The translations under genes were made by a program, and so were the position numbers. A stretch of DNA of 64,000 bases from a virus. Shown one piece after another: positions 14,438 through 45,831 of the stretch (positions are counted from its first letter, which is position 1; the number at the start of each line of letters is the position of its first letter). The notes beneath the pieces are model-generated. The model saw nothing but the letters and a program-made list of their open reading frames with translations. It had not been told where the DNA came from and ran no database searches. The DNA is taken from positions 32,001-96,000 of the IMG/VR virus record IMGVR_UViG_3300032516_000004; one strand, written 5' to 3'.

Positions 14438-16464
14438 ATACTTATAAGAAGGCCGTTGCTGTTCGTAGACAAAAACAGTCTAAAATTAATAGTAGGATAA
14501 AGGCCGCGATGAGTGGTCTACCTTCTCATACCGCTAAACTTAATTTTGATCTTACTGATCGAGACACTAATAAAAAAATTGATGTACCTCGAAACGCTAG
14601 AATCAAAGCAATCGCTATTGTATCTGATCTATTAGATAGCTTCGGTCTACCATCTAAGGCAAAACTTAACTATTTGGGCACAGTTAAGAAGGCTACCACT
14701 AAAGATGGTGATATAAAAGATGGTATTTTAAAGGTCGGGGCTGTTATTTCCACACTACTCGGCCATAAGATTGCTATTGATGTTCCAGTTATTGTTAGAG
14801 ATAAGAGTTTACTCGAACCAGCAGTATTCTTTTATGATGGGAGTCCGTTTGTTTTATGCAAACAGGCCATTGATCAATTGATTAAACGTGGTACTTTAGA
14901 CAAGGCTATTGCAGAGCGTAGGAATTTGTACTCTCCACCACTTATGGAAAAATGGTTGGGGATTGATCATGAACCAGCTCGTACGCCCATTATCAATAAA
15001 GATCATATGTTTAACCCCGGCTCACGTAATCCATGGAAGTTCCGTCGATACTCACAGAAAAATGTAATGGTAGACTGCCCAGAATGTACGGGGGCGGGCA
15101 GTAGTTCTGCGACTCATGGCGAAGGAACCTTTGAAATTCCATGTGAGAATTGTAAGGGATCTGGAAATATCGAAGTAAATCCAAGCGACATAATTGAGGG
15201 AAAAGATACGTGGACACGTTGTCCAGATTGTGGTGAGTACACTCAACACGATCAGTGCGTGTCGTGTCAGCAGTCAGGATCTAGTGATGTTGAGGGGGCA
15301 CGTTTAAGCCCACATGCTGAAGAACAATGTAAACAGTGTGGTTATTCGATGCCAGCCAATGAAGCGGGGTGTCGCCAGTGTGGAGCACCGCGTCAAGCAT
15401 GTATTCAGAAAAAACAGGCCAAAGATAAGAAACCGCGTGAACGTACCAACATTGACACGCCGACTGAATTTCCCGAGGTGTGGAAGGGTGATCTACCACA
15501 GCAAGTTCTTGATCCGGCAGAACGTAGCCGTGAAGATCTGTTTGGGGTTGGTCAAGCGGTGAAACTTAGTGAAGATTTTGAGGCCCGTGAACGAGGTGGT
15601 GGTCAGGTCGTGGTCCCAAGCGGTGAGCGTGGTAAAGTGGTTCGTGACATGAAGGGTGATGGCCTATGTCTAATGGTTAATTTTCCGGACATGGATATAT
15701 CAGCTATTGTTCCAAAACGGTTTTTGAAATTAGCTACCCAGGAGGGTAGTAATCACCCTTTTGATAAACAGGCTAGATTAACTCCTGGAGTATATTCGAT
15801 AGTTCTACCAGATTTTCCGGAAACAGGTTGGACACTGTTCGTTGATCCGTCTGGCAATGCGGTGCTTCAATATACTAGAAAAACCGGTGCTGAGATAATT
15901 GGAAGTATTTATCCAAATCCAGTACAATCGCATCCGGGAATTGAAGATGTTATTGCCGCCGCCATTGAAACTAATAAAGACGAAATGGTTGAGTCCGTAG
16001 CGGATATGCAGCAATATATTAATAGTGCTGGCATTAAATATGATTTAGAATCTGAGTTTAATGAACAAACTCAGCTGCGTGAGCAAGAGTATGGTGGTGA
16101 TAAAGAGGGCATCAGTGAACGAGAACTCGAAAATCCTTGGGTAACTTCCGGCGAGCCGTCGCACGAACCAGAAATTAAATCAAAGTGCCAGTGGTGTTTA
16201 TCAGAAATGGAAGAAACTGCTGGTACGGCCCAAGGTGAGGTTATCTGCCAGAAATGCGTTGAGTGGGCAAAAGCAAATCCAGGAGAGTGTACTCCTGAGC
16301 AATTAAAAGATCTTGGAGCTACCAGAACAGCCGCTACCACTGAACAGGTAAAGCACGAAATTCGTGAAATGCTCCGTGAGGGATATACCCCTGTAGACAT
16401 TATAGCTGCTGTAAAGGAAAAATATCCAGAGCACGCAGTAGAGGTTCTTAAGAATCTCAGTTAA
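14434..16464 (+). CDS. Multidomain protein with clustered Zn fingers and SH3-like domain (676 aa)
   Basis: CPECTGAG and CENCKGSG (DnaJ-type), CPDC/CVSC, CKQC/CRQC, CQWC/CQKC; FGVGQAVKL...GERGKV barrel. Confidence 0.6.
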   Translation: MNTYKKAVAVRRQKQSKINSRIKAAMSGLPSHTAKLNFDLTDRDTNKKIDVPRNARIKAIAIVSDLLDSFGLPSKAKLNYLGTVKKATTKDGDIKDGILKVGAVISTLLGHKIAIDVPVIVRDKSLLEPAVFFYDGSPFVLCKQAIDQLIKRGTLDKAIAERRNLYSPPLMEKWLGIDHEPARTPIINKDHMFNPGSRNPWKFRRYSQKNVMVDCPECTGAGSSSATHGEGTFEIPCENCKGSGNIEVNPSDIIEGKDTWTRCPDCGEYTQHDQCVSCQQSGSSDVEGARLSPHAEEQCKQCGYSMPANEAGCRQCGAPRQACIQKKQAKDKKPRERTNIDTPTEFPEVWKGDLPQQVLDPAERSREDLFGVGQAVKLSEDFEARERGGGQVVVPSGERGKVVRDMKGDGLCLMVNFPDMDISAIVPKRFLKLATQEGSNHPFDKQARLTPGVYSIVLPDFPETGWTLFVDPSGNAVLQYTRKTGAEIIGSIYPNPVQSHPGIEDVIAAAIETNKDEMVESVADMQQYINSAGIKYDLESEFNEQTQLREQEYGGDKEGISERELENPWVTSGEPSHEPEIKSKCQWCLSEMEETAGTAQGEVICQKCVEWAKANPGECTPEQLKDLGATRTAATTEQVKHEIREMLREGYTPVDIIAAVKEKYPEHAVEVLKNLS

Positions 16465-16498
16465 CCCCTCATTGAGGGAGGCTTATAAGGAGCTTACT

Positions 16499-16819
16499 AT
16501 GAAACTTTGGGTTATTGTAGATCACATTGGACGACAGTTCTTAGGTAAAGTAACTAACGAAAATGATGATATTCTAACTATAGAAGAACCAATATTAATA
16601 ATGGAGATCATTCAACCGCCGAAGGTTGATTTACAAGTGCAGCCAATCTGTCATACATTTGATGTTCCATCTATTGAGGTTCGTTGGGTTTCAAGATTTC
16701 CTGCAAATGAAAAATTAGCCACACTATATGAAAAATTCACAGAGCAGATGCGGGCTAAGCGTGCTGGTATAGAAATCGCCTCAACAATCCCCAAGGGATT
16801 GCAGCTGGTGAGACATTGA
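16499..16819 (+). CDS. Small beta-barrel protein, possibly Sm-like (ATG 16499)
   Basis: SD AAGGAG before ATG 16499; GRQFLGKV..E.DDILTIEEPILI fits an Sm1-like strand pattern. Confidence 0.5.
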   Translation: MKLWVIVDHIGRQFLGKVTNENDDILTIEEPILIMEIIQPPKVDLQVQPICHTFDVPSIEVRWVSRFPANEKLATLYEKFTEQMRAKRAGIEIASTIPKGLQLVRH

Positions 16820-31199: not shown

Positions 31200-31686
31200 T
31201 TTGCATCCCCGCTCTCTCACCAAGTTCCTTCCTCCACCAATATTGCCCTTCACCTTCTTGGCGAGCCCTAAAATTGGTATATCCTAGAGCCCAACGAATT
31301 GCATTCTTGAGCTGTTTGATTTGTTTCTTATATTCTTTAAGCCTTTTGGTTAAATACAAGTTATCAAATGGTTTTCCTTTGCCATAGAATACTTTGAAGA
31401 ATTCCTGGGCCGACAATTTACCATTATTATCAAATGTGAGGAATGGGACATCAATAAAATAGTCTGATTTTATGGTTGGCAAAATGTCATAGACACACCG
31501 CCATGAACATAGATGTAAATGCTTACATGCGTGATCCTGGGTAAACACTTTGATCTCTAAGTATTCTCGATCATCCTTATTGAAGTCAATTAGTTGCTTA
31601 CACCAATCGCAACCATATGTGGCCTCAGACATGATTTTACGACTTCCACACTTACATGTTTTATATTTTGCCTCTTTTATAAGCAT
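31192..31686 (-). CDS. Cys-rich hypothetical protein (ATG 31686 preferred)
   Basis: GGAGG SD before ATG; CKC, CDWC, HLCSWRC motifs. Confidence 0.6.
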   Translation of the reverse strand: MLIKEAKYKTCKCGSRKIMSEATYGCDWCKQLIDFNKDDREYLEIKVFTQDHACKHLHLCSWRCVYDILPTIKSDYFIDVPFLTFDNNGKLSAQEFFKVFYGKGKPFDNLYLTKRLKEYKKQIKQLKNAIRWALGYTNFRARQEGEGQYWWRKELGERAGMQNG

Positions 31687-31722
31687 ATGACCTCCAAATA
31701 TAGGGAATTGCAAATTTTGTGC

Positions 31723-31935
31723 CTATGTCTCCCTATCATATTTCTTACAAGTATGGATTCGACCGTTTTGGTTAGCTAATCTCCAACCTCGTTCAGTTAC
31801 CACCCACTTTAAATATTTATGACCACAATATCTACATGTAAATGACCGTGGATATTGATCTTCTTGTTCACATTCCCATTCATTGTCCCAATTGTCCAGG
31901 GCATCATTGATAGCGTCGTCTGCCATATCGCCCAT
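31723..31935 (-). CDS. Small hypothetical protein, first gene of the inverted island
   Basis: MGDMADD...TCRYCG...W...W.L, a common small phage protein pattern. Confidence 0.6.
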   Translation of the reverse strand: MGDMADDAINDALDNWDNEWECEQEDQYPRSFTCRYCGHKYLKWVVTERGWRLANQNGRIHTCKKYDRET

Positions 31936-31968
31936 ATCCAGATATAGTTCTCCAGTAATTCTAATATA

Positions 31969-31996
31969 TTGCTAGCATGCCTGTAAGCTCTACTAT
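31969..31996 (+). promoter_or_regulatory. Sigma70-like promoter TTGCTA-N16-TACTAT
   Basis: In the divergent intergenic region; similar element at 40209-40236; predicts a transcript start near 32003. Confidence 0.5.
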
Positions 31997-32002
31997 TTTA
32001 TG

Positions 32003-32176
32003 CTTGATGGTTTAGTGCCACCGCTAGACTATTTAGTTTCACCCCCACTTGGTGGGGCGGCTGCTTCGGCAGTATATAAACTGTTCCCAGCCCGCAATTT
32101 CGCGAGCTGTAGAACAAGGTGGGATAACACCCGTACCCTTGGCATAGGGTACAAACGATCGAGGGGCTGCTCGTGT
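32003..32176 (+). ncRNA. Highly structured RNA/leader, omegaRNA(HEARO)-like candidate
   Basis: At least six hairpins in ~150 nt including a cUUCGg tetraloop; 79/140 G+C in 32041-32180 by hand count in an AT-rich genome; directly precedes a PLMP-like domain. Confidence 0.6.
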
Positions 32177-33109
32177 ATGGGCCGGTCTCAGGAAATTATC
32201 GTCCTCGATTCGGAGCGACGATTTCTCGAGTATACGCGACCTGGGACTGCGAGATTGTTGCTAAAAGAAGGCAAAGCACGTGTTTTCTCTAGGCAACCAT
32301 TCGCAATAATGCTCTTACGCACGGTGTCAGCTGCCGAGATTAGAAGGAGAATAGTCATGCCAGCACCCCGTAATTTTACTGAGTATTTCCGTAACGAGAA
32401 GGATGTGTACGTTCAGAATCTTGCGAACGCACAGGTATCCTGTGAATTCCCTATTGGGCCTAATAGGGTCGAGGGATTCACGTTCCCACACAATCGGGAC
32501 CCCATCAATCTGACTCAACATATTCCATTTCATGCTATTAAAGATTCCATGGACTTTCGTAAAATGTTGAGCCGTAGACCCCCAGCCCTTCAACTTTTGA
32601 ATGAAGAAGAATATAATGCTTATTTTGAGAAAAGAGCATCACAACAGGGATTAAAAGATAGATCTGGGAAATTAGATATTGATGCGGCTATTGACTCGAG
32701 TGAGGAAAAGCGTCGTCGAACCGCAGATAAAAATCTTCGTGAGAATGTAACTGATAAAGACCCAGAACCCATACATGAAGTTATTGAAAGCGGTACCGGT
32801 CCCAAGGGTGCTACTCATTTTGGGGAACGTAACCGCGTAATGCCAAAAGAAGTTGTAGCAGAAGACGATATTATTAACCCTCGAGTTCTTCATCTTTGCA
32901 ATCAGGTAAAGAATGAGATTCCTGAAGAAGAAAGAATGCCTGCCAAAGACCTGCTTGATGAACTCCAGGGACTTCCAGATTTGAAACTTGATGATCTTGA
33001 GCATATTCGTGCTCATGGATTTTACAAAAGCGTGAAAAAATGGAGTAAACAGAAAATGTCTGAAATATCAGACAGTGAAGAAGCTGAAAACACTTCAGCT
33101 GACGAGTAA
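32177..33109 (+). CDS. PLMP/RRXRR-like N-terminal domain fused to a virion-region protein (internal start at 32357)
   Basis: IIVLD...TRPGTARLLLKEGKARVFSRQPFAIML fits the IscB/RRXRR N-terminus; second SD AAGGAGA plus ATG at 32357 starts the MPAPRNF domain. Confidence 0.7.
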   Translation: MGRSQEIIVLDSERRFLEYTRPGTARLLLKEGKARVFSRQPFAIMLLRTVSAAEIRRRIVMPAPRNFTEYFRNEKDVYVQNLANAQVSCEFPIGPNRVEGFTFPHNRDPINLTQHIPFHAIKDSMDFRKMLSRRPPALQLLNEEEYNAYFEKRASQQGLKDRSGKLDIDAAIDSSEEKRRRTADKNLRENVTDKDPEPIHEVIESGTGPKGATHFGERNRVMPKEVVAEDDIINPRVLHLCNQVKNEIPEEERMPAKDLLDELQGLPDLKLDDLEHIRAHGFYKSVKKWSKQKMSEISDSEEAENTSADE

Positions 33110-41142: not shown

Positions 41143-43625
41143 TGGCACTCGAACTATCGGGCTATCAAGACCCAGGCACATACATTGGCGAAGTAGTTAA
41201 CCCGGCTCAAATTTCATTAGCTACGGTCCCAGATGTTCTCGCCATTGTTGCTCATGGTAATCGTAGCAAGCGTTCGACTAATGAAGCGGTAAAGCGTGGT
41301 CAGGTATTTAGTGAAACTCTCACTGTTGCTGGTGTCGCGCCACATACGGCTACTTTAGGTAGCCGTGGTGATCGTAGAGTATCAAACACCACGGTTCGTA
41401 GAACATTGTCTGGTGAAACGATCGAGCTGCCTGATTCTGCGATTAGTTTTGGTTTTGCGGTGTTAACTGGCAGCGTCCTTACTACAGTTGACATTAGTAC
41501 GGCTAAAGCATTTGGTTTCAAGATGGATAATGGACAAGAAATTACTATCCAGCTTGAATATAATATGGCCGCAAGTACAACAATCTCAGGATCGTTGGTT
41601 ATTTCAAAACACCCATTTAGTGGGGTTGCTGGTGCTTCGGCAACACCAGCTGAGATTGCAACGGCTATTAATGCCGCGTTAGTTGCCGCGACTACGCTCG
41701 GATATGGTACAACATACGCAGCCGCCGTAACTGTTTCAACCAATAAATTGGTGTTTACCAGTATTCTTACTACCCCATATTCTGATGTATATATTGTTGC
41801 TCCATTTGCAAATAGCGGAACGGCTGTTTTAGGCTTTACAGTTCCAGCATATGCTTCAACAATTGTCACTATTGCCACCGTATATTACAATGTATCTGCT
41901 ACATATGAAATCGATTATGTGGCGGTGAATACATCTCTTGATCCGCTTACAAACACCGCAACCAAGATTACGCGAACTGGTTCATTTGCCAATGTGACAA
42001 GTTTTTACGAGAATACCGATTATTTACTAACTACTGGTGATATTGACTGGTCGCCAGATACAGCGGCTTCATTTACTGGCTCACCATCTGAAAATTTTGA
42101 TCTCAGCACCAATGATAATATTAGGGTGGCGTTTGATGGTAAAGCTGCAGTAACGATTGATCTTAATAATGGTGCGTTAGCTGGTGTAGTGCCGGGCTAT
42201 GCGGTTCCAGTTGCACCTGCAGCCACTACTGCTGAAGAAGTCGTTAATAATATTAATGCTGTAATAGCTATTGCAGCTAACTATGGACCAAAATACCGGG
42301 CATGTGCTGTAACAGCGGCTACTGGTACTAAGGTCAAGTTGGTGAGTCCGACCGAAGGTATTGCATCTAGCATTGAGCTTTCTGCTCCGACATCATTGAA
42401 TGCGACCGCTGCTATTTTTGGTTTAATTCCTTCACAACTTCCTTATACAGTGCTTGGTCTTGGTTCTAAGCCAGGAATTGGGGTCATTTATTTTATTACG
42501 TACGACTATGATAGACCAACAGCGGATTACAATAATCCTAAGAGATATTTCAGCGAAGATCAGATGACCGCTGATCTTACGCCAGTGTCTATGGCTAATA
42601 TACTGTCAACATATGGACAGATTACATTTGAAAATGGTGCTCCATCGGTAGTGTGTTGCCAAGTTAACGACCTAACACTCCCCGGATTCCCAACCGTCAA
42701 TGAGATTAAATCGGCAATTGATGCGCTGGCGATATCATCTGTCACCACTGATGTGGTGGTAGCTGATACTAGACTTAATGTTCAGACTTACCTAGTGAAC
42801 CATATTGAAGTTCAGAGCTCGCCTACGGAAAAGAATTATCGATCCGGTTGGTTTGGCATGCCGACCAGCACATTGGTTGGTGATAAAGATACCCCAGACA
42901 CATTCGTCTATCGAGCGGCTGTTACACTGCAGGTTGCTCCTGATAGTCCAGCTCGAGGCCGCATGATTCTTGTTGCCCCGTCTGGTGTTGATAGAACAAT
43001 TAGTCTTGAGGATGGTTCGCAGCTCACACTTACCATGAATTCAACAGCATTGTGCTGCGCTATCGCGGCTAGACACACAAGCTTTACATCACCGGCCATT
43101 TCATTAGCCAATAAGACTATCACGGGATTCGACGCCACGACATTCCCCATCTATTTAAAGGCTGAAAGAGCACAACTGGCATCGAACGGTGTTATGGTTG
43201 TGACGATGGATGGTGGAAACCTTCGAATTTTAGATCCAGTTACAACTGAAGCTGGTGGTGGCGCGGCATCCAAGTTTATGTATCGGGAGACCGCATCACA
43301 AAAAGATAATGTCAGCAGGTTAATGGATCAGATAATTTCTAATAATCTGCAGGGTGTTGTGCCTACAGATTTGTCAGATTTCGTGTTCGATATTAAGGTA
43401 TTTGTTGCGGCGGTGTTAACGTCACTTATTGAGACAGGTGCTATTGGTCCATTCAGAGATGCTAATGGCGTGTCACGGGATATTGATCTTTCTAAGGATG
43501 TTCAAGCAGAACAAAGCAAGAATGATCCTACGAAATTCAACTTCCGTTATTGGTTCTTCTTGAGATATCCAGCATTACGATTTATGGGTCAGTTCTCAAC
43601 GGACAACCCATTCTTCAACGCATAA
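41142..43625 (+). CDS. Contractile tail sheath protein
   Basis: N-terminal GYQDPGTYIGEV motif; 827 aa; C-terminal sheath-like domain ending FRYWFFLRYPALRF; directly upstream of tube genes. Confidence 0.85.
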   Translation: MALELSGYQDPGTYIGEVVNPAQISLATVPDVLAIVAHGNRSKRSTNEAVKRGQVFSETLTVAGVAPHTATLGSRGDRRVSNTTVRRTLSGETIELPDSAISFGFAVLTGSVLTTVDISTAKAFGFKMDNGQEITIQLEYNMAASTTISGSLVISKHPFSGVAGASATPAEIATAINAALVAATTLGYGTTYAAAVTVSTNKLVFTSILTTPYSDVYIVAPFANSGTAVLGFTVPAYASTIVTIATVYYNVSATYEIDYVAVNTSLDPLTNTATKITRTGSFANVTSFYENTDYLLTTGDIDWSPDTAASFTGSPSENFDLSTNDNIRVAFDGKAAVTIDLNNGALAGVVPGYAVPVAPAATTAEEVVNNINAVIAIAANYGPKYRACAVTAATGTKVKLVSPTEGIASSIELSAPTSLNATAAIFGLIPSQLPYTVLGLGSKPGIGVIYFITYDYDRPTADYNNPKRYFSEDQMTADLTPVSMANILSTYGQITFENGAPSVVCCQVNDLTLPGFPTVNEIKSAIDALAISSVTTDVVVADTRLNVQTYLVNHIEVQSSPTEKNYRSGWFGMPTSTLVGDKDTPDTFVYRAAVTLQVAPDSPARGRMILVAPSGVDRTISLEDGSQLTLTMNSTALCCAIAARHTSFTSPAISLANKTITGFDATTFPIYLKAERAQLASNGVMVVTMDGGNLRILDPVTTEAGGGAASKFMYRETASQKDNVSRLMDQIISNNLQGVVPTDLSDFVFDIKVFVAAVLTSLIETGAIGPFRDANGVSRDIDLSKDVQAEQSKNDPTKFNFRYWFFLRYPALRFMGQFSTDNPFFNA

Positions 43626-43670
43626 CCCGATGATTGTCGGAGACCTTAAGGTTTAACAGGAGTTTTAGTC

Positions 43671-44162
43671 ATGGCAGACCCTTCACCGCCAGGAACATTA
43701 GTTCGCACGTCTCATTCCCTAACGATTAGAGTTAAAGGTGTTACCATTGGTCTTATCAATGGTTGGAACCCAACTCAAAGTAGAACCATTACCCCAATCT
43801 ATCAAATTGCGACATATGATCGACAGACCAGAAGCGGTGAGCCAGTAGAGAAGGTACCTGGCAACGTTACAGGTCAAACGATCGGCGTTCAGAGATATGA
43901 TATTTACACACAACGAATGGAAACAGCGTTTGGAACTACAGACCTGTCAATGTTGTCCATACAGATCGATCCATTCGATGTTGTAGAAAAGTGGATGTTC
44001 CCACAGACTGAACGTAGACCACAAGGTGGTACTGAATACGTAACATACACGGGTTGCTGGTTCTCAAATATTGGCAGAAATTTTCGATCTGATGGTGATC
44101 GAATTGTCAATGTTAATGCCACCCTCGAGTATGTACGTCGTTCGTTGGGACAAGTCTCGTAA
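43671..44162 (+). CDS. Tail tube protein, paralog 1
   Basis: RTSHSLTI.V.G..IG.I.GWNP.Q.R.I..IY...E.VPGNVTG.TI...RYD..Y. Confidence 0.8.
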   Translation: MADPSPPGTLVRTSHSLTIRVKGVTIGLINGWNPTQSRTITPIYQIATYDRQTRSGEPVEKVPGNVTGQTIGVQRYDIYTQRMETAFGTTDLSMLSIQIDPFDVVEKWMFPQTERRPQGGTEYVTYTGCWFSNIGRNFRSDGDRIVNVNATLEYVRRSLGQVS

Positions 44163-45240: not shown

Positions 45241-45273
45241 GTAGTTTAACCACCCTCAACAGAGGAGGCCACC

Positions 45274-45831
45274 ATGGCTGACAACGAAGAAGTTAAGAAA
45301 ATCGGTATTTCAGTAGCAAATCGACATCAAATATTGGAAGATATTGCAACTCAGACAAGGGGGGCTGAGATTAGTACTGTTGCTACGGTAGCAGGACATA
45401 AATACCTACTTCATACACTAAGTGCTGATGAAGAGGTGTGGGCTGATGGTTATGTTAGTTCCAACAGTGCAATGGCAGCGATTACATCAATGAAACTACC
45501 AACCTTAGCCGCATCTATTAGAGCAATTGATGACATTACGGTAGATAAGCTATTTGATTTTTCAAACCAAAATTCAAACGAAGCATTCCACACGCAAAGT
45601 AGTTGGCATAGACATTATTGGGAAATGTCTCAAATGCTTTTGTGGCTCGGTGATAGACCCAATCCACTTATTATCGAGTTATGGAAAGAATATGTTGCTT
45701 TAACTGAACGTCGTGACAAGTCATGGGATGAATTAAAAAAATCGTGTGCGGGGACTCCTTATGGCGAATCAAAAGTTACGTGCTCGCCAGAAAAGGTGTC
45801 CTCGCCAGTAACCCAGACGTCCAACGTATGA
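45274..45831 (+). CDS. Tail assembly chaperone (gpG-like)
   Basis: Between tube and tape measure genes; overlaps a -1 frame ORF at a slippery site. Confidence 0.75.
   Translation: MADNEEVKKIGISVANRHQILEDIATQTRGAEISTVATVAGHKYLLHTLSADEEVWADGYVSSNSAMAAITSMKLPTLAASIRAIDDITVDKLFDFSNQNSNEAFHTQSSWHRHYWEMSQMLLWLGDRPNPLIIELWKEYVALTERRDKSWDELKKSCAGTPYGESKVTCSPEKVSSPVTQTSNV
45735..45741 (+). other. Programmed -1 frameshift site A AAA AAA
   Basis: X XXY YYZ heptamer in frame (TTA AAA AAA TCG); a -1 shift enters the 45744-46412 frame (ELKK-IVCGDSLW). Confidence 0.75.

What the first reader, a model, noticed from the sequence alone, without database searches (positions are those of the whole stretch)
32003..32176. 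Dense multi-hairpin RNA with a potential SD-sequestering switch, omegaRNA/HEARO-like
Seen: AGACT/AGTTT (32026-39), CCCCAC/GTGGGG (32043-57), GCTGC-TTCG-GCAGT (32060-73), a long interrupted stem TGTTC..CAGC.CGC/GCG.GCTG..GAACA (32082-116), GGTG/CACC (32118-31), GTACCCT/AGGGTAC (32133-52) and CGAG/CTCG (32160-73). The loop GGGCTG of the last hairpin is complementary to CAGCCC (32088-93) and overlaps the GAGGGG SD of ATG 32177. Known: IscB genes are preceded by a structured omegaRNA (HEARO) whose 3' part is contacted by the PLMP domain. Inference: a retained or repurposed omegaRNA scaffold. Fragments such as CTAGACT, TGTTCCCAGCCC and TCGAGGGG resemble my recollection of HEARO segments, which needs confirmation.
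Basis: partly seen in the sequence, partly recalled or inferred. Interest (0 to 1): 0.75.

Follow-up and report, generated by a model that had tools for sequence, protein, structure and literature searches.

The report
Folded leader RNA before nuclease-free PLMP gene
A large uncultured phage has a conserved, tightly folded ~185-base RNA leader in front of a gene whose first 60 residues are the RNA-gripping PLMP domain of the Cas9 ancestor IscB without any nuclease; one hairpin of the leader matches the hairpin that this domain holds in IscB guide RNAs, so the pair looks like a captured RNA-protein module now used for something else, probably control of the gene's own translation.

Summary
In 16-19 distinct relatives the fold is kept by compensatory changes: 87.8% of cells pair against 42-48% in slid controls. 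It is a real, conserved RNA.

It is not HEARO. Rfam gives no match even at E<=10, although the same model scores 87-105 bits upstream of genuine IscB genes fetched as controls. There is no nuclease, no guide and only one copy in the genome.

One part is shared. Hairpin P1 with its flanks (UUACC-stem-GAG) is the terminal hairpin that follows the HEARO core in IscB loci. According to published structures, the PLMP domain binds that hairpin. A model built only from IscB hairpins picks P1 as its top hits in the relatives. The window's own P1 is a degenerate copy and is not hit.

The ORF downstream (32177) starts with a PLMP domain (Z 9.1 to IscB). It runs in frame into a 250-aa protein that has its own conserved ribosome site and ATG (32357).

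Most likely this is an omegaRNA-derived PLMP-binding leader that tunes the long isoform. Binding is untested.

This scan has reported the same family in at least six other genomes.

The parts
31969..31996 (+). Inferred promoter: TTGCTA (31969-74), 16-nt spacer, TACTAT (31991-96). This places the transcript start near 32003.
   Evidence: Read from the sequence. The same TTGCTA(GC)-N15-17-TAYTAT(TT) motif precedes the gene in relatives that lack an upstream capsid gene, such as L044, L055, L063, L065 and L071. It falls below the threshold of the consensus scan (8 of 12 matches). Inference only.
32003..32036 (+). P0: 5' hairpin with the conserved loop (U)CCACC at 32018-32022. In relatives that have the capsid gene upstream, it is GC-rich, is followed by U3-4 and looks like a terminator.
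   Evidence: All 12 pairs show double-sided changes and 85% of cells pair. The loop is TCCACC in 13 of 15 sequences (window GCCACC, L044 CCCACC; L048 TCAACC, L056 TCTATC).
32037..32060 (+). P1 with flanks: UUUCAC-CCCCAC-UUG-GUGGGG-CGG. This is the family's counterpart of the omegaRNA terminal hairpin (UUACC-stem-GAG). The window's copy is degenerate, with C for U in the 5' flank and GCG for GAG.
   Evidence: 6 of 7 pairs have double-sided changes and 97.9% of cells pair. The strict motif occurs in 39 of 49 PLMP-X leaders and 41 of 61 IscB loci, against 0.03 and 0.016 expected. The IscB-only model R2 hits P1 of relatives but not the window's copy.
32060..32073 (+). P2: 5-bp hairpin with a UUCG loop.
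   Evidence: 3 of 5 pairs have double-sided changes. Only 74% of cells pair in the MAFFT alignment because of register slips, but the hairpin is clear by eye in every row.
32082..32116 (+). P3: long interrupted stem.
   Evidence: In the outer helix, 7 of 8 pairs have double-sided changes and 99.1% of cells pair. The inner helix has 3 of 4 with double-sided changes, and MAFFT aligns it poorly.
32118..32132 (+). GGUGGG (32118-23), complementary to the P0 loop (candidate pseudoknot), overlapping the short hairpin P4 (GGG 32121-23 / CCC 32130-32).
   Evidence: Pseudoknot: 98.9% of cells pair, with one double-sided change (L048, CAACC with GGUUGG, which breaks a P4 pair) and wobble changes in L056. 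P4 never varies in the close clade. The corresponding 4-bp GNRA hairpin of distant relatives does covary, with all 4 pairs changing on both sides.
32133..32152 (+). P5: 6-bp hairpin.
   Evidence: 5 of 6 pairs have double-sided changes and 93.5% of cells pair.
32161..32189 (+). Translation start region of the long isoform: SD GAGGGG (32161-66), invariant GUGYAUG, AUG at 32177, and a moderate hairpin (32163-72 with 32179-89) that holds the SD in its 5' strand and the AUG in its loop.
   Evidence: A hairpin of this topology appears in the MFE of about 14 of 18 relatives, with different partner sequences in the two subclades. Stability does not exceed shuffles (z from -2.3 to +1.3; window -0.99). 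Plausible, not established.
32177..32356 (+). PLMP domain (60 aa) with no nuclease, FLEY in place of PLMP.
   Evidence: PF14239 positions 1-48, E 2e-9. AF2 model compared with TbaIscB 9k30_A: Z 9.1, rmsd 1.3 A over 51 residues, 37% identity; DtIsrB 8dmb_P: Z 8.3. The same signature residues (HPA.AR.LLK.GKA.V...PF.I.L) are conserved as in IscB.
32344..32359 (+). Internal ribosome site AAGGAG (32344-49) and in-frame ATG (32357), encoded within the linker codons IRRR.
   Evidence: An SD-like motif 3-18 nt before the internal ATG occurs in 32 of 34 relatives. In L070, L073 and L089, PLMP and X are separate ORFs.
32357..33109 (+). Protein X (250 aa), function unknown, conserved next to the major head protein gene in most relatives.
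   Evidence: 110 homologues. No Pfam family and no convincing PDB fold. It resembles uncharacterised proteins of phages PaBG, Motura and BcepSaruman. The upstream gene in relatives is phrog_2522, major head protein.

Best explanation
The stretch 32003-32189 is the 5' leader of the mRNA for a two-isoform gene. The long isoform is PLMP-X, starting at AUG 32177. The short isoform is X, starting at AUG 32357.

The leader is a conserved multi-hairpin RNA made of P0 to P5 plus a hairpin over the start site. Its oldest part, P1 (probably together with the small hairpin P4), descends from the 3'-terminal hairpins of an IscB/IsrB omegaRNA. Those are the hairpins that the PLMP domain grips in the solved complexes. 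The HEARO core, the guide and the nuclease are gone.

I infer that the PLMP domain, made either as the N-terminus of X or in some relatives as a separate small protein, binds this leader in cis or on sister transcripts. Binding would limit or tune initiation at the first AUG, whose SD lies in a hairpin, and so set the ratio of long to short isoform. Hirano et al. suggested this kind of feedback for IsrB.

P0, P2, P3, P5 and the P0-loop/GGUGGG pairing are additions specific to this clade. They pack the RNA and bring P1 next to P4.

Shown here: the conserved structure, the shared hairpin motif, the PLMP fold and the conserved internal start. Inferred: binding, feedback and the transcript ends.
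For: Structure. The region folds with z -3.9. On a MAFFT alignment that was not fitted to the structure, 87.8% of cells pair against 42-48% for slid partners. 36 of 45 pairs show double-sided changes against 15-19 in the controls, and no shuffle out of 500 reaches the observed covariation score.

Linkage to the gene. The RNA stays with the PLMP-X gene whether the upstream neighbour is the capsid gene or a divergent promoter. In this genome the capsid gene lies 50 kb away and has no copy of the RNA after it. The genome holds a single copy.

Link to omegaRNA. The Rfam HEARO consensus ends in ...cauUAC, immediately before a hairpin of the form C-stem-GNRA-stem-G-AG. That motif occurs in 41 of 61 IscB loci and 39 of 49 PLMP-X leaders, about 25-40 times the background rate. 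Model R2, built from IscB hairpins alone, gives P1 as its three best hits in 275 kb of PLMP-X loci, and 7 of its 18 hits fall on P1.

PLMP domain. Pfam E 2e-9 and structural Z 9.1 to IscB. Published structures report that PLMP binds the terminal hairpins and contacts the SD, and suggest a role in regulating expression (PMC9581776 and PMC9640706).

Two isoforms. The internal SD and ATG are conserved in 32 of 34 relatives.
Against: No binding or expression data exist.

The window's own P1 departs from the motif at two flank positions, and R2 does not detect it.

In this clade P1 lies 120 nt from the AUG, so binding there would not by itself cover the SD.

The hairpin over the SD and AUG is no more stable than shuffled sequence, and its partner strand changes register between subclades.

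About ten relatives (L060, L063, L065, L070-L075, L089) keep the PLMP domain but have a short leader without a clear hairpin. One relative (L041/L081) keeps the RNA while its PLMP frame is broken. RNA and domain are therefore not strictly co-dependent.

The shared motif is short (about 8 fixed bases plus a hairpin) and contains an SD-like GAG, so convergence is possible.
Confidence: 0.5

Rival explanations
1. The leader is a structured 5' UTR that works without the PLMP domain. P0 acts as a leaky terminator, or as a 5' stabiliser after the capsid gene. The remaining hairpins act as a processing or decay barrier and as a passive brake on the first AUG, so that most ribosomes use the strong internal site. 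On this view the likeness of P1 to the omegaRNA hairpin is historical or convergent.
For: In capsid-adjacent relatives P0 is a GC-rich 12-bp stem followed by a short run of U. The internal SD and ATG are conserved. Some relatives have PLMP without a structured leader, and one has the leader with a broken PLMP. The P1 motif carries an SD-like GAGG.
Against: This view does not explain why exactly the flanks UUACC...GAG of the IscB terminal hairpin are kept across relatives with 33-80% protein identity. It does not explain why the PLMP fold and signature residues stay under selection. It does not explain why the P0 loop sequence is conserved and covaries with GGUGGG.
Confidence: 0.27
2. The RNA is a stable product in its own right. 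It forms a ribonucleoprotein with PLMP-X and acts in trans. One possibility is a translational regulator of several late genes that carry similar hairpins. Another is an RNA component of a head or neck assembly, held by the few X subunits that carry PLMP, comparable in principle to the phi29 packaging RNA with its loop-loop contacts.
For: Hairpins of the same kind, followed by a small palindromic hairpin and an SD, lie before ATG 16499, 43671 and 45274 of virion genes. The hairpin before the tube gene is kept in L176 with a different stem sequence. An earlier report of this scan made the same claim for another genome. The CCACC/GGUGG complementarity could be intermolecular. X sits in the head module.
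Against: Genome-wide, the strict motif is no more frequent before genes than other SD-bearing hairpins are (2 of 10 against 64 of 309). R2 gives no significant hit elsewhere in the genome. Four of six tube-gene relatives show no hairpin of this motif, and L178 has one without the ACC flank. There is no evidence for a discrete stable RNA, and none for X being in virions. Rfam finds no packaging-RNA match.
Confidence: 0.15
3. The RNA is a working omegaRNA (HEARO) that guides a nuclease encoded elsewhere.
For: Only its position upstream of a PLMP ORF and the dense structure.
Against: There is no HEARO match at E<=10, while control loci score 87-105 bits. The 5' end is a covarying hairpin, not a variable guide. 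The genome holds one copy. The ORF has no RuvC or HNH domain.
Confidence: 0.01

Closest known systems
Terminal hairpins (TH1/TH2 in OgeuIscB; SL7/SL8 in DtIsrB) of IscB/IsrB omegaRNA with the PLMP domain
   Same: Both have a hairpin flanked by UUACC and GAG, followed by a second small hairpin, upstream of an ORF that begins with a PLMP domain. The PLMP fold and signature residues are the same. In both, SD-like sequence lies at the 3' base of the hairpin.
   Different: No RuvC, HNH, TI or bridge helix follows the PLMP domain. The omegaRNA core (guide adaptor, nexus, pseudoknots) and the guide are absent. In this clade, P2 and P3 are inserted between the two hairpins and P0, P5 and a start-site hairpin are added. 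P1 is 120 nt from the AUG instead of 7-25 nt. The window's P1 flanks are degenerate.
HEARO RNA (Rfam RF02033)
   Same: Both are structured RNAs of about 200 nt immediately 5' of a PF14239-containing ORF. The 3' end of the HEARO consensus (UUAC) equals the 5' flank of P1.
   Different: The covariance model does not match at all, and the helices do not correspond. HEARO is multi-copy and mobile, whereas this RNA is a single copy fixed to one phage gene.
Autoregulatory mRNA leaders bound by their own product (ribosomal-protein operators, T4 RegA/gp32, MS2 coat-protein operator)
   Same: This is the proposed logic: a protein binds a hairpin in its own leader and limits its own translation.
   Different: Here the RNA-binding domain and its hairpin appear to have been captured together from a transposon-encoded RNA-guided nuclease. 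Binding has not been shown.
Domesticated OMEGA effectors such as TldR (nuclease-dead TnpB; bioRxiv 10.1101/2023.11.30.569447)
   Same: Both are exaptations of a transposon RNA-guided nuclease system by a host or phage for regulation.
   Different: TldR keeps the whole protein and a guide RNA. Here only a 55-aa domain and one or two hairpins survive, and nothing suggests guiding.

Membership tests
HEARO RNA (RF02033) | Covariance-model score at or above the gathering score of 83 bits | tested here: not met
   No match at gathering level over the whole window. No match at E<=10 over 31600-32600 or at E<=1 in relatives L002, L007, L015 and L010. Positive controls scored 105.4 bits (L084) and 87.5 bits (L085).
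HEARO RNA (RF02033) | Lies upstream of an IscB gene (PLMP + RuvC + bridge helix + HNH) | tested here: not met
   The ORF matches only positions 1-48 of the 174 positions of PF14239 and has no HNH domain. The structural match to IscB covers residues 5-56 only.
omegaRNA (OMEGA systems) | Variable 5' guide next to a transposon end; element present in several copies | tested here: not met
   The 5' end is hairpin P0, in which all 12 pairs covary, and it starts at the inferred promoter. The genome holds one copy.
omegaRNA (OMEGA systems) | 3'-terminal hairpin of the form UUACC-stem-loop-stem-GAG just before the PLMP ORF | tested here: met
   Met for the gene family: 39 of 49 leaders carry it, and the IscB-only model R2 hits P1 in L005, L080, L008, L029, L003, L051 and L004. 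In the window itself only a degenerate form is present (UUUCACC...GCGG at 32037-32060), which R2 does not hit.
PLMP domain (N-terminal part of PF14239 RRXRR) | Profile match above the Pfam cut-off, and the beta-sheet plus helix fold seen in IscB/IsrB | tested here: met
   37.9 bits against a cut-off of 25. Z 9.1, rmsd 1.3 A over 51 aligned residues and 37% identity to 9k30_A; Z 8.3 to 8dmb_P. Foldseek's top nine PDB hits are all IscB or IsrB complexes.
PLMP-hairpin RNA-protein complex | Physical binding of the domain to the hairpin | not testable with these tools
   Known only for IscB and IsrB from cryo-EM (PMC9581776, PMC9640706). Here it is inferred from the shared domain and shared motif.
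Intrinsic terminator (for P0) | GC-rich stem followed by a U-run of at least 5 | tested here: inconclusive
   The scan finds no terminator in 31700-32400. The window's P0 is AT-rich. In capsid-adjacent relatives the stem is GC-rich, but only 3-4 U follow it.
A different SD/AUG hairpin recurs, but its mean z is about -0.4.

The most novel reading that the evidence does not exclude
PLMP with its hairpin is a portable RNA-protein recognition pair that large phages captured from an IscB/IsrB element and turned into a trans-acting late-gene regulator or an assembly RNP. On this reading the ~185-nt RNA is a stable partner of PLMP-X and may self-associate through the CCACC/GGUGG contact. Similar hairpins before other virion genes (ATG 16499, 43671, 45274) would be further binding sites.
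Probability: 0.12. Interest if true: 0.9.

Novelty: new variant of a known kind. Interest (0 to 1): 0.7.

Why it matters
This would be the first case in which only the RNA-gripping front end of the Cas9 ancestor, together with the piece of guide RNA it holds, survives as a working unit without any nuclease.

It would give a natural minimal system, a 55-aa domain plus a hairpin of about 20 nt, for studying how PLMP recognises RNA. It bears on the published idea that IscB and IsrB regulate their own translation through the terminal hairpin. It adds a new structured RNA family, absent from Rfam, to the late-gene regulation of large uncultured phages. A small orthogonal RNA-protein pair of this kind could also be useful as a tool.

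The papers searched contain no description of such a module.

Tried and rejected
- **Rfam.** No match at gathering level or at permissive thresholds. The only weak hits, CRISPR-DR10 and Ysr251, have E of 0.6-1.7 and lie on the minus strand, so I take them as chance.
- **Nucleotide search of annotated phages.** No match. A protein search with X found one record, annotated only as hypothetical.
- **Coding reading of 32000-32176.** The frame from ATG 32000 is open in the window, and the public collection carries a 369-aa call for it. The closest relative has in-frame stops there. The region is therefore not coding.
- **Word-indexed search with the 60-aa PLMP domain for longer proteins.** This returned only the family itself. 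The exhaustive profile search was needed to reach IscB.
- **tRNA-like reading of P0.** The loop TTCCACCA recalls a tRNA 3' end, and L011 has a tRNA-Met gene upstream. ARAGORN finds no tRNA in the window's locus, L002, L007, L058 or L068. Dropped.
- **Function of X.** The ESM Atlas and PDB fold searches gave only uncharacterised viral clusters and generic helical matches.
- **A hairpin regulon.** The strict motif is not enriched before genes across the 178-kb genome. R2 has no significant second hit in the genome.
- **A reciprocal model built from the PLMP-X P1 hairpins.** Not built. MAFFT could not align stems of different length.
- **DNA for the two closest relatives (P0002, P0003).** It could not be fetched because the sample files were too large.

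Full report
**1. What is there**

The stretch 32003-32176 lies in a divergent intergenic region. The genes upstream are on the minus strand and end at 31935; the genes downstream are on the plus strand.

The 174 nt fold at -68.6 kcal/mol, against -53.9 +/- 3.8 for dinucleotide shuffles (z -3.9).

The frame is open from ATG 32000, and the public collection carries a 369-aa product for it. The closest relative has in-frame stops in this stretch, so it is not coding. The real start is ATG 32177, preceded by an invariant GUGYAUG.

**2. The gene behind it**

Residues 7-54 of the ORF 32177-33109 match positions 1-48 of Pfam PF14239 (RRXRR), which is the PLMP domain of IscB (E 2e-9). Nothing of RuvC or HNH follows.

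An AlphaFold model (pLDDT 82) superposes on the PLMP domain of TbaIscB with Z 9.1, rmsd 1.3 A over 51 residues and 37% identity. It superposes on DtIsrB with Z 8.3. Foldseek's best nine PDB hits are all IscB or IsrB-omegaRNA complexes.

The frame continues into a 250-aa protein, X, which has no Pfam family and no convincing solved fold. X resembles uncharacterised proteins of large phages such as PaBG, Motura and BcepSaruman.

Exactly at the junction lie AAGGAG (32344-49) and ATG 32357. An SD-like motif before this internal ATG is kept in 32 of 34 relatives. It is encoded within the linker codons. In L070, L073 and L089, PLMP and X are separate ORFs. X is therefore always translated on its own. 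PLMP is either an N-terminal extension of a minor long isoform or a separate small protein.

**3. Conservation of the RNA**

Protein searches gave 110 homologues. DNA was fetched for about 75 loci from viral and metagenome collections.

In most relatives the gene follows the major head protein gene (phrog_2522). In the window and several others it follows a promoter-like motif, TTGCTA-N16-TAYTAT, instead. In this genome the head protein gene is 50 kb away and no copy of the RNA follows it. The RNA therefore travels with the PLMP-X gene. It is single-copy in the 177,941-bp genome.

A MAFFT alignment of 16 distinct leaders from the close clade (62-82% protein identity) was not fitted to any structure. 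On it, RNAalifold finds 33 pairs, 26 of them with compensatory changes.

With the structure completed by hand to 45 pairs:
- 87.8% of cells pair, against 42-48% when the partners are slid by 1-3 columns.
- 36 pairs show double-sided changes, against 15-19 in the slid controls.
- No shuffle out of 500 reaches the observed covariation score.

The helices, in window coordinates, are:

| Helix | Coordinates |
|---|---|
| P0 | 32003-36 |
| P1 | 32043-57 |
| P2 | 32060-73 |
| P3 | 32082-116 |
| P4 | 32121-23 / 32130-32 |
| P5 | 32133-52 |

A covariance model of this leader (R1) scores 112-174 bits in 19 loci. It scores 14-30 bits in intermediate relatives (L029, L010, L027).

Relatives with 33-40% protein identity have a short leader of two hairpins. 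One is P1. The other is a 4-bp GNRA hairpin whose four pairs all covary. That second hairpin is nearly identical in sequence to the window's P4 in L024, although R1 aligns it with P2. I read P1 plus this second hairpin as the ancestral core.

**4. A long-range contact**

The P0 loop, (U)CCACC, is complementary to GGUGGG at the 5' side of P4. The six pairs hold in 98.9% of cells. L048 has CAACC together with GGUUGG, a double change that breaks a P4 pair but keeps this contact. L056 keeps the contact through wobble pairs.

That amounts to one independent compensatory event, so the pseudoknot is likely but not proven. It would enclose P1-P3 and bring P1 next to P4.

**5. The start site**

In about 14 of 18 relatives the minimum-energy fold of positions -22 to +24 puts the SD in the 5' strand of a hairpin, the AUG in its loop and codons 2-7 in the 3' strand. 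The two subclades use different sequences for this: CUGCUC...GAGCA plus GAGG...CCUC in one, and GAGGAA-GGCC...GGCCUUCC in the other.

The stability does not exceed that of shuffles (z from -2.3 to +1.3), and the register shifts between subclades.

The idea of a switch therefore remains open.

**6. Is it HEARO or an omegaRNA?**

Rfam gives nothing for the window or its relatives, even at permissive thresholds.

As a positive control I searched a profile of the family's PLMP domains against 1.8 billion representative proteins. That gave 2722 hits at E<=0.001, including genuine IscB proteins and many stand-alone PLMP ORFs of 52-130 aa. I then fetched IscB loci. RF02033 scores 105.4 bits in L084 and 87.5 bits in L085, while R1 finds nothing there. 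The leader is not a member of HEARO.

Immediately after the end of the HEARO model, whose consensus reads ...cauUAC, both control loci carry a hairpin of the form ACC-stem-loop-stem-GAG. That is the form of P1.

In 61 distinct IscB loci from bacterial genomes, a strict version of this motif lies within 70 nt of the start in 41 loci. The strict version requires ACC, a stem of at least 4 bp opening with C-G, then G-AG. Only 0.016 per locus is expected from the background rate in the same loci. It lies in 39 of 49 PLMP-X leaders, where 0.033 is expected.

A covariance model built only from 27 IscB hairpins (R2) was searched over 275 kb of PLMP-X loci. Its three best hits are P1 of L005 (E 0.006), L080 (0.009) and L008 (0.06). 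Seven of its 18 hits at E<=10 fall on P1.

[quoted passage not shown] They also say this could regulate IsrB expression (PMC9581776 and PMC9640706).

The family's leader therefore keeps the part of the omegaRNA that PLMP holds and has lost the rest.

One caveat applies to the window itself. Its own P1 (UUUCACC...GCGG) differs from the motif at two flank positions and is not hit by R2.

**7. Mechanism**

The best reading is an omegaRNA-derived PLMP-binding leader that tunes translation of the long isoform (confidence 0.5). Binding is inferred, not shown.

Against an obligatory cis pair, about ten relatives keep PLMP behind a short, unstructured leader. L041/L081 keeps the RNA while its PLMP frame is broken, although an assembly error is possible there.

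The rivals are:
- A PLMP-independent leader acting as a terminator, stabiliser or passive brake (0.27).
- A trans-acting or assembly RNP (0.15).
- A working guide RNA (0.01).

**8. A lead that was only partly followed**

Hairpins of the same kind, each followed by a small palindromic hairpin and an SD, lie before ATG 16499, 43671 (a tail-tube paralogue) and 45274.

The one before the tube gene is kept in L176 with a completely different stem sequence, but four of the five other relatives show no such hairpin and L178 has one without the ACC flank. Across the genome the motif is not enriched before genes, and R2 has no significant second hit. A regulon is possible but not shown here.

**9. Novelty**

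The searched papers contain no description of a nuclease-free PLMP domain or of this RNA.

This scan has already reported the same family in at least six other genomes, with similar conclusions. My tests were made independently of those reports, apart from the regulon lead, which I took from one of them and could only partly confirm.

Noticed in passing
window 16461-16501: UUAACC-CCCUC-AUU-GAGGG-AGG lies directly after the stop of the preceding gene. It is followed by the palindromic CUUAUAAG with AAGGAG, then ATG 16499 of a 106-aa ORF. The layout closely resembles the region between HEARO and the IscB start in L085.
   Followed up: partly
window 43621-43673; L176 about 140-250: CAUAACC-CCGAU-GAUU-GUCGG-AG, then the palindrome ACCUUAAGGU and AGGAG, lie before ATG 43671 (tail-tube paralogue). 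L176 (75% protein identity) has UACC-UAAC-AAUUA-GUUA-GAGG at the same place, so the hairpin is kept with a different stem. Of five other relatives, four show no such hairpin and L178 has one without the ACC flank.
   Followed up: partly
window 45244-45276: UUUAACCACC-CUC-AACA-GAG-GAGG lies 9 nt before ATG 45274. It is a small SD-bearing hairpin of the same type.
   Followed up: no
L085 1245-2775 (Ga0180301_10000756): A complete IscB (424 aa, RRXRR + HNH) with a HEARO RNA (87.5 bits) sits inside a phage head module, two genes before a Mu-like major capsid gene. This shows that OMEGA elements do land in the kind of place where the PLMP-X fusion is found.
   Followed up: partly
L081 (= L041) 110-262: In the closest relative for which DNA could be fetched (82% identity), the PLMP reading frame is interrupted by a deletion and frameshift in the helix region. 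The leader RNA and X are intact. This is either decay of PLMP or an assembly error.
   Followed up: no
proteins P0112-P0256; loci L088-L091: Many ORFs of 52-130 aa consist of little more than a PLMP domain. Some proteins carry two PLMP stretches (P0126, P0133), and one 1123-aa protein shows 11 matched stretches (P0123). Contexts include a 71-aa PLMP ORF followed by an X-like gene (L089) and a 65-aa one overlapping an HTH protein (L088).
   Followed up: partly
window 31969-31996 and the same place in L044, L055, L060, L063, L065, L071, L075: A recurring promoter-like motif, TTGCTA(GC)-N15-17-TAYTAT(TT), lies before the gene in all relatives that lack the capsid gene upstream. It may be a phage-specific promoter class.
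   Followed up: no
window 32000-32176: The frame is open from ATG 32000 across the whole RNA, so the public collection carries a 369-aa product (P0001). In other relatives gene callers start at the internal ATG, or in a wrong frame (a 59-aa ORF in L082/L083). About half of the family is therefore annotated without its PLMP domain.
   Followed up: yes
L003 2343-2386: A 19-nt tandem duplication of the 5' half of P1 (UUUACCUCUGUUUAACAGA, twice).
   Followed up: no
L077 2860-4254 (own genome 117200-118594): In this genome the major head protein gene is followed by a plain terminator hairpin and then an ORF of more than 465 aa, not by PLMP-X. The head module has been rearranged relative to most relatives.
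   Followed up: no
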